The notes under the pieces were generated by a model. It saw only the letters and a program-made list of their open reading frames with translations. It was not told where the DNA came from and searched no databases. This document shows, piece by piece, positions 42,771 through 57,465 of a stretch of 62,789 bases of DNA (position 1 is the stretch's first letter; every line of letters begins with the position of its first letter). Source of the DNA: Tortispora ganteri (taxonomy: Eukaryota); assembly GCA_003707115.1 (NCBI GenBank), contig PPNB01000034.1, positions 1-62,789 on the forward strand, written 5' to 3'. The position numbers and the translations under genes are program-made.

Positions 42771-42862
42771 GGCGAGTTGGCCGAGTGGTTTAAGGCGGCA
42801 GACTTAAGCTTTAAAGCAATCTGCTGGATGTTTCCGCGCGAGTTCGAACCTCGCACTCGTCA
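42771..42862 (+). tRNA. tRNA-Leu(UAA) with a 10-nt intron (42809-42818)
   Basis: Acceptor stem GGCGAGT/ACTCGTC plus discriminator A; A box TGGCCGAGTGG; anticodon stem GCAGA/TCTGC with CT-TAA-G; variable arm GGA-TGTT-TCC; T loop GTTCGAAC. Confidence 0.95.
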
Positions 42863-47134: not shown

Positions 47135-47296
47135 GTAAGTATCTAGTCTTTGTTGAAATGATGAACAAAGCTACCCCTCTCCGACTAATGTCATGATACG
47201 GATAAAAAGGCCATTGGTAACTTAGAAAAATTTTATCTGAATCAACCTACAACTCGCTCTACGCGCGACCCGCGACCAGCAACTAACCTTCACCAG
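47135..47296 (+). other. Putative spliceosomal intron in non-coding sequence upstream of the MMT gene (snoRNA host)
   Basis: GTAAGT at 47135-47140, branch site ACTAAC at 47282-47287, CAG at 47294-47296; same signal spacing as the coding introns in this window. Confidence 0.65.
47152..47246 (+). ncRNA. Candidate intronic box C/D snoRNA (target unassigned)
   Basis: Box C ATGATGA 47158-47164, box D CTGA 47237-47240, terminal stem GTTGA/TCAAC; possible D' CCGA 47181-47184 and C' ATGATAC 47193-47199. Confidence 0.7.
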
Positions 47297-47320: not shown

Positions 47321-48406
47321 ATGATTACATTAAAATCGCTAAATAGAACACTCAGAACCCAACATATACTCTCCAATGCTTACTTCTTGCGCGCTAAACC
47401 CACAGTACGCTATCACGGTTCGCATGATCACGATCATACCCACAAAGAAGGCGCGAAACTCCTGCTAGGCCCGCCATCTGACCCGCGTTCCCGCATAACA
47501 CAAGTCGGTCTTGCATCGAACATCTTTATTGCAGGCGTAAAGGCAATTGGCGGCTGGATTTTCTCCTCTCAGGCTTTACTAGCAGACGCCGCTCACGCTG
47601 CTGTCGATGTCGCGGCAGATGTCACTACCCTCGCAGCCGTATCGGCTTCAAACAAACCGAAGTCAAACATCTATCCACTTGGAAGAGGCAAAGTCGAGGC
47701 ACTAGCATCACTCGCTGTATCTGGCCTCCTAATTTCCGCCGCTGTAGGTATCGCAACGCCCATCTTTTCCCTCTCCCTCTCCTTCATAGGCGAACACTTT
47801 AATATACCACTACTTCTACAACTCCCTCATGTCCACTCTCATTCGCATCAGATAGTAAGTCCCAATGCTGCATGGCTAGCATTGGGTTCTCTCGTCATAA
47901 AGGAGTGGGTTTTTAGAGCTACTATGAAAGTAGCCCATCAGACCAAATCCTCTGTCCTGGTCGCCAACGCCTGGCATCATAGGGCTGACGCCCTCACTTC
48001 AGGTGTTGCTTTAGCCGCAATAGTGTTAGCGCAATTTGTGCCCAATCAGGAAATAGCTTCTCTTATCGATCCTGCTGCCGGCGGCGCCGTCGCTCTCATC
48101 ATCCTGAAGGCTTCTATCGGCACAACCAAACAGGCCATATGGGAACTTACCGACAATTCGAAAGCAGTCAGTTCTGAAACTCGCCACTCTATTGAATCTT
48201 CTGTTAAAACAGCCTTGGAGAATTACCCCGATACTTCTCTTTCTAAACTCGATGTCCTCAAAGCCGGCTCTGAGGTAAATGCTTTCATTGACATTAAAAC
48301 TGACCCTAACTCGCCTCTTAAAGATTTCCAGGAACTAGCTCACACCGTTGAGCATTCCGTGACTCATACCGACTCTGAAGTCAAAGTCAGGATCAGATCA
48401 ATATGA
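47321..48406 (+). CDS. Mitochondrial cation diffusion facilitator (Mmt1/Mmt2-like iron transporter)
   Basis: Presequence, His-rich HGSHDHDHTH, SQALLADAAH, YPLGRGKVE and ANAWHHRADALTS motifs. Confidence 0.88.
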   Translation: MITLKSLNRTLRTQHILSNAYFLRAKPTVRYHGSHDHDHTHKEGAKLLLGPPSDPRSRITQVGLASNIFIAGVKAIGGWIFSSQALLADAAHAAVDVAADVTTLAAVSASNKPKSNIYPLGRGKVEALASLAVSGLLISAAVGIATPIFSLSLSFIGEHFNIPLLLQLPHVHSHSHQIVSPNAAWLALGSLVIKEWVFRATMKVAHQTKSSVLVANAWHHRADALTSGVALAAIVLAQFVPNQEIASLIDPAAGGAVALIILKASIGTTKQAIWELTDNSKAVSSETRHSIESSVKTALENYPDTSLSKLDVLKAGSEVNAFIDIKTDPNSPLKDFQELAHTVEHSVTHTDSEVKVRIRSI

Positions 48407-55313: not shown

Positions 55314-55595
55314 TTACATACCAGGCAGTTTACCACCACCCGGAGGACCCATTTTCTGTAGATGCTCGCCCATTTGAACATTTACTTGAAAATATTTAGC
55401 GACACACCGGTCAATACAAACAGATTCACCTTTAGATAGCTCACCCTCGGCATATTTGGGCGTGATGCACTTTTGATGACAAACATCGACTAATCGGTTA
55501 AACATATCGGTAACCATATCCAATTCAGCTTCAGCTGCCATGATCTTATTCTGATCAACGGCTCCAGAGCCGCCACCCATTCCAAATAATGACAT
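55314..55595 (-). CDS. TIM10: Small Tim chaperone Tim10
   Basis: [16 protein letters not shown] and twin CX3C (CHQKC, CIDRC) followed by VAKYF. Confidence 0.96.
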
Positions 55596-55761
55596 TTGTT
55601 AATAATAAATTCCAATTACGCTGGTAGAATCGAAATTTGCGAAGGAGGTTTTGCAGTTTAGAGTTTATTCTTTGAAAGTTACCCGGATTTAAAGTATCGA
55701 CAAAAATACCTTTTTCACCATCGTATGAACATACACACATACCTTTTTTCTTCCATAACAC

Positions 55762-57465
55762 ATGCTCAAAGGTAAGTCATAATTCTTTGTTTGCTATATG
55801 ATGAGTATCTAAGGCTGTGGTTCAGATAATATAATGATCTAGAAAACCCCTAATCGCTAATCTTCTCTCTGAAAGCAATGCTCTTTTGCAGCAATACTAA
55901 CTTCTCGGCAAGCGTTTTCGCGGCCCTCTGTTCGAGCCTATTCTGTACTCCACACTAAGCCAATTAAGTCTCAAACTGTTTCACGATCTTATCCACCGTC
56001 CTTAGATGTCAAAAATTTCTATCCTCGCTTCCCACGAGCGCCCTACAAAACGATAAACGAGATCCTCAACAGCTGGGATAGTCTCGCAGCAACCGCAGAC
56101 ACAATCAAAACTTACGGAAGAGTCGCTAGGGTTCGCGACAATGGCGGTCTTATCTTTATAGACATATACCACTTGAATGCATCAATTCAGGTCATGTTGA
56201 GTGTTCGCGATCTCGAAAACTCTCCCGATCCAGCATCACTTAATGCAAAATATCTAAAGCCAGGAGACTCAATTGAAGTTGAAGGTCATCTGGTTTGTTC
56301 AAGTACGTCTGTACTGTCAATTAAACCCTCAAGAGATATTCGATTCTTGTCGGTAGCACAGAATATTCCTTCTATAGGACGGTTGAAGAAAGATCAGCTG
56401 GTATCCAACAGGGTTCTCGAGTTCAAACTGCGACCTGAACTTAAAGACCATCTAGTAGCACGAGCCTTGATTATTAAGCAAATTAGAAACTTTCTTGATT
56501 CAAAAAGCTTTATTGAAGTCAATACTCCTATACTGAGCTCCGCAGCTTCAGGTGCCGTCGCCTCACCGTTCATCACTACAAGCAGGTTTATCCGCAAGAA
56601 GAATAAGCAACTACAGCTCCGAATTGCTCCTGAATTGTGGCTTAAGCGTCTTATAACTTCTGGTCTTGATAGAATATATGAACTCGGTCCCTGCTTTCGC
56701 AATGAAGGTATCGATCCTGCACATAATCCGGAGTTCACAACGTGCGAGTTCTATACCTCTTTCTCTAGTATACACGACTTAGTTCAGCTTACACAGAGTC
56801 TATTGACTTCGTTTTTTAATGTTCCAGAACTTGAGCCTTATTTAAAAGAAGCTCCAGAGTCTTTAAGAACTAATGAATTTCAGATTATTGATTTCGTGCC
56901 TTATATTGAACAGAAAATTGGAACAAGTTTGCCTAAACTGTCCTCTGATAATCCTACCCTTGTTACTGATATAATTTCCATCTTTGAACGACAAAACATC
57001 GCTCTACCGGCTTCTAAGACTGCTCCATCTTTGTTAGAAACTTTAGCTGAAGTTTATATTGAACCCGCTTGTATCAAACCTACCTTTGTCATGAACCATC
57101 CAGAGATTTTATCGCCTCTTGCGAAATCGTTCGTTACTCCTGAAGGTCATGTATTGTCGCCTAGGTTTGAACTGTACATAAATGGCAGAGAACTATGCAA
57201 TGCTTATGAGGAAGAGAATTCACCGGACGAACAGTTGCGGAAGTTTCAAGAGCAGTTGGATAACAAACTCACCGAATATGACTTACCTGTCATTGACCAG
57301 GATTACATACAATGTTTGCGATTAGGAATGCCACCTACAGCGGGCTGGGGTATAGGTATTGATCGTCTATGTATGCAACTTCTTGGTCTGCAGAATATCC
57401 ACGATGTTCTTCCCTTTGGAGGACTCAACCAGACATTGTCACTTAATAACTCATTTAACGAGTAA
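55762..57465 (+). CDS. MSK1: Mitochondrial lysyl-tRNA synthetase, 2 exons
   Basis: Exon 1 ATGCTCAAAG (55762-55771), GTAAGT donor, TACTAAC 55895-55901, acceptor 55912 (or 55891). Splicing yields presequence MLKAFSRPSVRAYSV... in frame with LRIAPELWLKRL, FRNEGID..HNPEFT and GMPPTAGWGIGIDRL. Confidence 0.9.
55791..55878 (+). ncRNA. Intronic box C/D snoRNA, mgU6-47-like (U6 snRNA 2'-O-methylation guide)
   Basis: Box C ATGATGA 55798-55804, D' CAGA 55823-55826, C' ATGATCT 55834-55840, box D CTGA 55869-55872, terminal stem TTGCT/AGCAA. The D-adjacent GCTAATCTTCTCT is the reverse complement of U6 AGAGAAGAUUAGC. Confidence 0.85.

What the first reader, a model, noticed from the sequence alone, without database searches (positions are those of the whole stretch)
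55791..55878. U6-targeting (mgU6-47-like) C/D snoRNA hidden in the MSK1 intron
Seen: complete C, D', C' and D boxes with a closing stem inside a GT-AG intron. The 13 nt just before box D (GCTAATCTTCTCT, 55856-55868) are perfectly complementary to the U6 segment AGAGAAGAUUAGC found in metazoans and fission yeast. By the D+5 rule the target is the last A of the ACAGAGA box. Known: that site is human U6 Am47 / S. pombe Am41, guided by mgU6-47, and S. cerevisiae U6 is not known to be 2'-O-methylated. Inference: this yeast retains snoRNA-guided U6 methylation, with the guide hosted by a mitochondrial aaRS gene. It may also retain LARP7/Pof8- and Bmc1-type cofactors.
Basis: partly seen in the sequence, partly recalled or inferred. 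Interest (0 to 1): 0.9.

Follow-up and report, generated by a model that had tools for sequence, protein, structure and literature searches.

The report
U6-guiding snoRNA in yeast intron
A small guide RNA of a well-known type, predicted to direct methylation of one adenosine in the catalytic ACAGAGA box of the spliceosome's U6 RNA, sits in the first intron of a mitochondrial lysyl-tRNA synthetase gene of an early-branching budding yeast; it looks real, but it is a new member of a known family, not a new kind of thing.

Summary
At 55791-55878 (+) there is a canonical box C/D snoRNA: a 5-bp closing stem, C box AUGAUGA, D box CUGA and weaker internal D'/C' boxes. It lies in a 141-nt GT-AG intron after the tenth base of a mitochondrial-type lysyl-tRNA synthetase gene. 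The 13 nt before box D are exactly complementary to the canonical U6 segment. The fifth-nucleotide rule puts the methyl group on the last A of ACAGAGA. Three Rfam mgU6-47-type families match guide plus D box exactly, but all score far below their thresholds. In one coded congener the snoRNA shows 3 changes in 88 nt, against 22 in the next 189 nt, and none in boxes, stem or guide. The host protein is 92% identical to a Tortispora caseinolytica protein, so this yeast lies far from Saccharomyces.

Not shown: this genome's own U6 (no genome held), any RNA evidence (no RNA run listed), and the methylation itself. The cofactor inference is weak: in S. pombe this site does not need Bmc1/Pof8.

Verdict: a new member of a known kind (mgU6-47/Z30/SNORD7). 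U6 targeting outside Saccharomycetaceae was already predicted through another snoRNA (snR53). Interest is moderate, about 0.4.

The parts
55762..55771 (+). Exon 1 of the host gene (ATG CTC AAA G; M L K plus the first base of a split codon)
   Evidence: The T. caseinolytica homologue P0002 starts MLKVFSRPS, and the window gives MLK + A + FSRPS.
55772..55912 (+). Intron, 141 nt: GTAAGT 5' splice site (55772-55777), TACTAAC branch sequence (55895-55901), AG 3' splice site (55911-55912)
   Evidence: The exon junction agrees with the relative's protein model.
55791..55878 (+). Box C/D snoRNA, 88 nt, same strand as the host gene
   Evidence: Full-length but sub-threshold Rfam snoZ30 alignment over 55791-55878. 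3 changes in 88 nt in coded relative B.
55791..55795 (+). 5' half of the closing stem (TTGCT)
   Evidence: It forms in the minimum-energy fold. No change listed in relative B.
55798..55804 (+). C box ATGATGA
   Evidence: Aligned to the C box of the Rfam snoZ30 consensus.
55813..55822 (+). Core of the possible D' guide (GGCTGTGGTT); target not identified
   Evidence: No significant pairing to U6. No change listed in relative B.
55823..55826 (+). D' box, degenerate (CAGA)
55834..55839 (+). C' box, degenerate (ATGATC)
55856..55868 (+). U6 guide, 13 nt (GCTAATCTTCTCT); T 55864 lies opposite the nucleotide to be methylated
   Evidence: 16 of 16 letters identical to Rfam snoU6-47 consensus positions 112-127, counting the D box. 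No change listed in relative B.
55869..55872 (+). D box CTGA
55874..55878 (+). 3' half of the closing stem (AGCAA)
55913..57465 (+). Exon 2 of the host gene: class II lysyl-tRNA synthetase of mitochondrial type (stop codon included)
   Evidence: Pfam tRNA-synt_2 at 2.1e-71 and the OB anticodon-binding domain. 92% identity to a T. caseinolytica protein; other hits are named lysyl-tRNA synthetase, some of them mitochondrial.

Best explanation
This is an intron-encoded box C/D snoRNA, the functional counterpart of mgU6-47 (SNORD7/Z30, S. pombe snoZ30). It is transcribed as part of the pre-mRNA of the mitochondrial lysyl-tRNA synthetase gene and released from the spliced intron. The C/D core proteins bound at the C/D kink-turn and closing stem protect it while the flanks are trimmed. 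Its 13-nt guide upstream of box D then pairs with U6 snRNA just 3' of and into the ACAGAGA box. Fibrillarin (Nop1) methylates the 2'-OH of the last A of that box, equivalent to human A47 and S. pombe A41. Shown here: the architecture, the exact guide and register, the intronic sense-strand position, and low divergence in a congener. Inferred: expression and processing, that this yeast's U6 has the canonical target sequence, and the methylation itself. The D' guide may serve a second, unidentified target.
For: All boxes, the stem and the guide are at the stated coordinates. The guide plus D box are identical to the consensus of three Rfam mgU6-47-type families: snoU6-47 at 16 of 16 letters, snoZ30 as a full-length alignment over 55791-55878, and snoZ30a. 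There is a 13-bp perfect duplex with the Rfam U6 consensus and with an ascomycete-type metagenomic U6 (L090), at -20.4 kcal/mol against -8.1 (sd 2.0) for 1000 shuffles. The target is the last A of ACAGAGA. The snoRNA lies on the sense strand in a GT-AG intron whose junction matches the gene model of T. caseinolytica. In coded relative B there are 3 changes in 88 nt of snoRNA (55810, 55829, 55873) and none in the 54 positions of boxes, stem, U6 guide and D' guide core. This compares with 22 changes in the following 189 nt of intron flank and exon 2 (Fisher p = 0.025). The lineage is Trigonopsidales, far from Saccharomycetaceae. Canzler et al. report predicted U6 pairing by another snoRNA in all fungal lineages holding it except Saccharomycetaceae (PMC5824354, section 27).
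Against: All Rfam scores are far below gathering: 14.8 against 50, 17.2 against 54, and 12.8 against 80. The gathering-threshold scan finds no snoRNA here. This genome's own U6 was not seen. The internal D' and C' boxes are degenerate. The fold is no more stable than shuffles (z = 0.91), which is usual for C/D RNAs but gives no support. Conservation rests on one relative about 10% diverged. For relatives C and D, only rows shared with B were printed, because 107 rows of table 3 were not shown. My reading that B's rows are complete over 55789-56067 is an inference from the order of the table. Run X1 may be the source of the window and is not independent.
Confidence: 0.8

Rival explanations
1. 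It is a real, expressed C/D snoRNA, but U6 is not its working target in this yeast. Either this lineage's U6 differs at the site, or the RNA works mainly through its D' guide on another RNA such as rRNA, and the U6 guide is a leftover.
For: The genome's own U6 was never seen. The D' guide core 55813-55822 also shows no change in relative B, so a second target is possible. S. cerevisiae U6 carries no 2'-O-methyl groups (PMC5855946).
Against: A 13-nt guide identical to mgU6-47-type guides of animals would decay quickly without a target, yet it shows no change in a relative that is about 10% diverged. The ACAGA box is reported as invariant in 240 species, including 230 Saccharomycotina (bioRxiv 10.1101/2023.05.04.539401, passage), though that covers only 3 of the 13 target letters. 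The D' guide shows no pairing to U6 beyond shuffles, and I could test no rRNA.
Confidence: 0.1
2. It is a decaying relic or an unexpressed snoRNA-like sequence in the intron, kept only because little time has passed since the congeners split.
For: No RNA evidence could be obtained. The relatives are only about 10% diverged, so conservation has limited power. The internal boxes are degenerate.
Against: All core elements are intact, and the three changes in relative B avoid all 54 functional positions. The neighbouring 189 nt carry 22 changes. At about 10% divergence, zero hits in 54 positions is expected less than 1% of the time (my arithmetic).
Confidence: 0.07
3. It is a chance assembly of short motifs with no function.
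For: Generic C/D-like architecture arises by chance: 0.74 hits per simulated window, and 4 hits at 3 places in the real one.
Against: A chance architecture would also need an exact 13-mer against a known modified site in the exact register (about 1 in 6.7e7 per candidate, my arithmetic). It would further need a sense-strand position in an intron, identity to Rfam family consensus guides, and reduced divergence.
Confidence: 0.02

Closest known systems
mgU6-47 = SNORD7 / Z30 (Rfam RF00288), Drosophila snoU6-47 (RF01221), snoZ30a (RF01196), S. pombe snoZ30 / mgU6-47
   Same: It is a box C/D RNA. The guide lies directly upstream of box D, with the same letters (UAAUCUUCUCU + CUGA) and the same register, so the target is the same nucleotide: the last A of ACAGAGA (human A47, S. 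pombe A41). The C box context AUGAUGAGU is shared with the Z30 consensus.
   Different: Outside the boxes, guide and stem there is no detectable sequence similarity, and all covariance-model scores are far below gathering. The D' half differs. The host is a mitochondrial lysyl-tRNA synthetase gene. The organism is a budding yeast (Trigonopsidales). For that subphylum, my searches listed no Z30-type guide.
snR53 / N. crassa CD11 family (snoStrip CD_11)
   Same: It is a fungal, often intronic, C/D snoRNA predicted to pair with the same part of U6: U6-Am47 in N. crassa (PMC2780460). The pairing is predicted in all lineages holding it except Saccharomycetaceae (PMC5824354, section 27).
   Different: There the U6 pairing is a secondary use of the D' guide, whose main target is 18S rRNA (Sc 18S-796), with 11 bp. 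Here a dedicated 13-bp guide sits upstream of box D, and the D' region has no such complementarity. So this is not a member of that family.
Intron-encoded box C/D snoRNAs of budding yeasts in general
   Same: It is on the sense strand in a short spliceosomal intron with a TACTAAC branch site. A review notes that such introns are preserved because they carry snoRNAs (PMC5499181, passage).
   Different: The known S. cerevisiae examples guide rRNA, not U6 (recalled, not from a call).

Membership tests
mgU6-47 / SNORD7 / snoZ30 (U6 A47-type methylation guides) | Box C/D architecture: C box, D box and closing stem | tested here: met
   ATGATGA at 55798-804, CTGA at 55869-72, and the 5-bp stem 55791-95 / 55874-78.
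mgU6-47 / SNORD7 / snoZ30 (U6 A47-type methylation guides) | Guide directly upstream of box D, complementary to U6, with the fifth position opposite the last A of ACAGAGA | tested here: met
   13 of 13 bp against the Rfam U6 consensus and a metagenomic ascomycete-type U6. The guide and D box equal the family consensus.
mgU6-47 / SNORD7 / snoZ30 (U6 A47-type methylation guides) | The same pairing with the U6 of the organism itself | not testable with these tools
   No genome is held.
mgU6-47 / SNORD7 / snoZ30 (U6 A47-type methylation guides) | Rfam covariance-model score at or above gathering | tested here: not met
   snoZ30 scores 14.8 against 50, snoU6-47 17.2 against 54, and snoZ30a 12.8 against 80. 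Common descent by sequence is therefore not shown; only the functional elements match.
mgU6-47 / SNORD7 / snoZ30 (U6 A47-type methylation guides) | A stable RNA is made, and the U6 adenosine is 2'-O-methylated in dependence on it | not testable with these tools
   This needs RNA data or bench work, and no RNA run was available to lay.
mgU6-47 / SNORD7 / snoZ30 (U6 A47-type methylation guides) | Conservation of boxes and guide in related species | tested here: met
   Relative B has 3 changes in 88 nt, none in boxes, stem or guides. Relatives C and D are only partly visible.
snR53 / Nc CD11 | D' guide complementary to 18S rRNA (Sc 18S-796) that also pairs with U6 | tested here: not met
   The D' region 55805-55822 pairs with U6 no better than shuffles: -10.7 against a mean of -11.2 kcal/mol. 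The 18S pairing itself could not be tested because no rRNA was on hand.

The most novel reading that the evidence does not exclude
A dedicated Z30-type guide for the catalytic-site adenosine of U6 survives in Trigonopsidales. If so, 2'-O-methylation of U6 was not lost at the base of the budding yeasts but later. The loss may have gone together with the U6 sequence change seen in the Saccharomyces lineage, which would break this duplex at two positions. This small-genome yeast would then be a budding-yeast system in which the role of this methyl group, and the order of loss of guide, target sequence and cofactors, can be tested.
Probability: 0.7. Interest if true: 0.45.

Novelty: new member of a known kind. 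Interest (0 to 1): 0.4.

Why it matters
S. cerevisiae, the main model for spliceosome mechanics, has no ribose methylation on U6, while humans and fission yeast do. A clear mgU6-47-type guide in an early-branching budding yeast shows that the subphylum started out with this modification. It also gives a marker (guide plus D box) to date the loss across the many sequenced budding yeasts and to compare it with changes in U6 itself. [quoted passage not shown] U6 targeting outside Saccharomycetaceae was already predicted computationally, so this refines the picture and does not change it.

Tried and rejected
- **Own genome:** not held. Records behind metagenome loci cannot be searched either, so U6, rRNA, Pof8/LARP7 and Bmc1 of this yeast could not be looked for.
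- **RNA evidence:** no RNA holder was listed by the look-up of sequencing runs.
- **Laying the runs on a heterologous U6 gene:** I considered this as a way to read this yeast's U6 and left it out. Only one read-laying run exists. A U6 stretch also shares a long identical core with human U6, which the tool says it turns away or filters.
- **Metagenome scan:** It gave 117 occurrences in 116 loci: 77 U6-like, 0 snoRNA-like and 40 other. So no further family members were gained, and this is no evidence of absence.
- **Rfam on six of those loci:** U6 was found in 5 of 6.
- **Read-laying table 3:** 107 rows were not printed, so relatives C and D cannot be scored over the snoRNA.
- **Thermodynamic fold:** not better than shuffles.
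- **D' guide against U6:** nothing. I recall that its complement resembles a conserved stretch of large-subunit rRNA, but I had no rRNA from any tool and did not test it.
- **Earlier findings of the scan:** nothing relevant.
- **Papers:** They hold the per-species snoRNA and target tables and may bear on whether a relative of this RNA was catalogued. Zhou et al. 2002 is not held. The distribution of Bin3 and Pof8 in fungi is shown only in a figure and supplement of PMC8917221.

Full report
**What is in the sequence.** On the + strand at 55791-55878 lies an 88-nt unit with the textbook layout of a box C/D snoRNA.
- The closing stem is TTGCT (55791-55795) paired with AGCAA (55874-55878).
- The C box ATGATGA (55798-55804) lies two bases inside the stem.
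- The D box CTGA (55869-55872) lies one base inside the stem.
- The internal boxes are recognisable but degenerate: D' is CAGA (55823-55826) and C' is ATGATC (55834-55839).
- Their reverse complement is AGAGAAGATTAGC.
- The fifth base upstream of box D (T 55864) faces the fifth letter of that string.

**Host gene and intron.**
- An ATG at 55762 opens a 10-base exon (M L K plus one base).
- It is followed by GTAAGT (55772), a TACTAAC branch sequence (55895-55901) and AG (55911-55912).
- Reading on from 55913 gives a 516-residue frame with Pfam tRNA-synt_2 (2.1e-71) and the OB anticodon-binding domain.
- One search scored 7998 candidates and listed the best 120. The best is a Tortispora caseinolytica protein at 92% identity.
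- The next hits are about 41% identical. Many are named lysyl-tRNA synthetase, and some mitochondrial.
- The Tortispora protein starts MLKVFSRPS. The window gives MLK-A-FSRPS across the proposed junction, so the relative's gene model uses the same intron and the distal AG.
- All three coded relatives read T at 55913, which turns the split codon into valine as in that protein.
- The window therefore comes from a Tortispora congener (Trigonopsidales, Saccharomycotina). This lineage is described as intron-rich with a 9.2-Mb genome (PMC5499181, passages).
- The snoRNA is on the sense strand of the intron. It lies 19 nt after the 5' splice site and 16 nt before the branch sequence.

**Is it more than chance?**
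- The architecture alone is not. A simple scan (RTGATGA, CTGA 45-120 nt on, stem of 5 or more pairs) finds 4 hits at 3 places in the window. It finds 0.74 per window in 100 first-order Markov simulations.
- The fold is no more stable than shuffles (z = 0.91), as is usual for this RNA class.
- What is not chance is the guide. The 15-letter pattern occurs once exactly in the window.
- The duplex with a U6 RNA is 13 perfect pairs at -20.4 kcal/mol. For 1000 shuffled guides the mean is -8.1, the sd 2.0 and the best -16.0.
- The guide also sits in exactly the register that puts a known modified nucleotide at the fifth position.

**Rfam.**
- At gathering thresholds the window holds only a tRNA.
- With permissive thresholds on the intron, three families of U6-47 guides appear among the weak hits.
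- snoU6-47 matches 16 of 16 letters of its consensus, CUAAUCUUCUCUCUGA, at 17.2 bits against a gathering score of 54.
- snoZ30 aligns end to end over 55791-55878 at 14.8 bits against 50. It shares the stem, AUGAUGAGU, and UAAUCUUCUCUCUGA.
- snoZ30a matches locally at 12.8 bits against 80.
- Other C/D families score similarly through the boxes alone.
- So the functional elements are those of mgU6-47, but sequence-level family membership is not shown.

**The target.**
- No genome is held for this window, and records behind metagenome loci cannot be searched. I could not read this yeast's U6.
This gave 117 occurrences in 116 loci: 77 in U6-like context, 0 followed by a D box, and 40 other.
- Of 6 loci given to Rfam, 5 hold U6 above threshold.
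- The Rfam consensus and these genes read ACAGAGAAGAUUAGCAUGG.
- In the ascomycete-like U6 of L090 the guide pairs with nt 37-49, and the fifth position is nt 41, the last A of ACAGAGA.
- This selection is circular as to how common the site is. It shows only that the guide fits canonical U6 exactly.
- The D' region pairs with U6 no better than shuffles.

**Relatives.**
- The look-up of sequencing runs listed DNA contig sets only.
- I laid X1 (organism A, possibly the source), X3 (B), X4 (C) and X8 (D) on 55450-56350 at 80% likeness.
- X1 is identical except for 56098.
- B carries 75 substitutions. C and D carry about 108 each over 863 nt.
- Table 3 printed 40 rows and withheld 107. The printed rows are one for X1 and 39 for X3 in order of place up to 56067.
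- I therefore take B to be fully listed over 55789-56067. This is an inference. For C and D only the rows shared with B are visible.
- In B the snoRNA has three changes: 55810 T>C (also in C and D), 55829 A>C and 55873 A>C.
- These three changes lie between the C box and the D' guide core, in the D'-C' loop, and between the D box and the stem.
- None falls in the 54 positions of boxes, stem, U6 guide or D' guide core.
- The next 189 nt (3' intron flank and exon 2 up to 56067) carry 22 changes. The comparison of 3 in 88 against 22 in 189 gives Fisher p = 0.025.
- No insertion or deletion is listed inside the intron, though 2 rows were not shown.

**Literature.**
- Passages of the U6 review PMC5855946 state four things. 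Human U6 has eight ribose methylations including A47, guided by mgU6-47. [quoted passage not shown] S. cerevisiae U6 is not 2'-O-methylated.
- PMC10484740 (passages) names snoZ30 as the guide for S. pombe A41. It reports that deleting Bmc1, Pof8 or Thc1 leaves A41 methylation unchanged, and that several fungi including S. cerevisiae lack both LARP7 and MePCE homologues.
- PMC2780460 (passages) predicts U6-Am47 for the D' guide of N. crassa CD11, an snR53 homologue.
- PMC5824354 (abstract, sections 5, 22, 26 and 27, and passages) extends that prediction to all lineages with snR53 except Saccharomycetaceae.
- Its text contains neither 'Z30' nor 'mgU6', and its S. pombe seed set was taken from Li et al. 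2005. In section 22 the families from that source are H/ACA.
- A preprint (10.1101/2023.05.04.539401, passages) reports the ACAGA box as invariant in 240 species, 230 of them Saccharomycotina. This covers only three letters of the target.
- Five searches listed no paper describing a Z30-type guide in a budding yeast: 'mgU6-47' (19 papers), 'snoZ30' (6), snoRNA + U6 snRNA + Saccharomycotina + methylation (3), Tortispora + snoRNA (1), and U6 snRNA + snoRNA + Candida albicans + O-methylation (3). I judged most of these by title and abstract start only.

**Mechanism.**
- Most likely (0.8) the RNA is released from the spliced host intron, assembles with the C/D core proteins, pairs through 55856-55868 with U6, and directs fibrillarin to methylate the last A of ACAGAGA.
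- Shown: the anatomy, the register, identity of the guide with known U6-47 guides, the intronic sense position, and reduced divergence in one congener.
- Inferred: expression, the sequence of this yeast's U6, and the modification.
- The rivals are a real snoRNA whose U6 guide is idle (0.1), a relic (0.07) and chance (0.02).

**Verdict.** The claim that U6 is methylated here remains a strong inference. The cofactor idea is not implied by this site. It is a new member of a known kind in a lineage where it had not been listed, and it is of moderate interest (0.4).

Noticed in passing
window 47152-47246 (+): A second C/D-like unit lies in an intergenic gap: AATGATGA, CTGA and a 5-bp closing stem. 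Rfam hits are weak (snR71 at 18.8 bits against gathering 60, TtnuCD17 at 19.9). It could be an independently transcribed snoRNA or chance, since 0.74 such hits are expected per window.
   Followed up: partly
window 47990-48111 (-): Two overlapping C/D-like architecture hits lie antisense inside the ORF 47321-48406. They are most likely chance.
   Followed up: no
window 55888-55891: A second AG (GCAG) lies 21 nt upstream of the 3' splice site and is also in frame. It lies before the TACTAAC branch sequence, so it is unlikely to be used. Relatives B, C and D have T at 55889 and keep the AG.
   Followed up: partly
window 55850-55862: CTAATC occurs twice in tandem, one base apart (55850-55855 and 55857-55862). 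The second copy is part of the U6 guide. The meaning is unknown.
   Followed up: no
window 55314-55595 (-): A Tim10/DDP small-Tim gene (Pfam 1.7e-23) is transcribed divergently from the host gene, with 166 bp between the two start codons. Two mitochondrial-function genes thus share a promoter region.
   Followed up: partly
window 55691-55757: In coded relative B, 65 nt of the intergenic region just upstream of the host ATG are replaced by 71 other letters (table 5). Relatives C and D show several 1-2 nt insertions and deletions there.
   Followed up: no
window 42771-42862 (+): A tRNA-Leu (anticodon UAA) has a 13-nt insertion after the anticodon, which looks like an intron, and a long variable arm.
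   Followed up: no
window 56098: The contig of run X1, otherwise identical to the window over 901 nt, reads A where the window has G.
   Followed up: no
L024 (metagenome locus): The U6-like site has the 3' half of U6 displaced about 50 nt away, and Rfam finds no U6 at gathering. It may be a U6 gene interrupted by an intron near the catalytic region.
   Followed up: no
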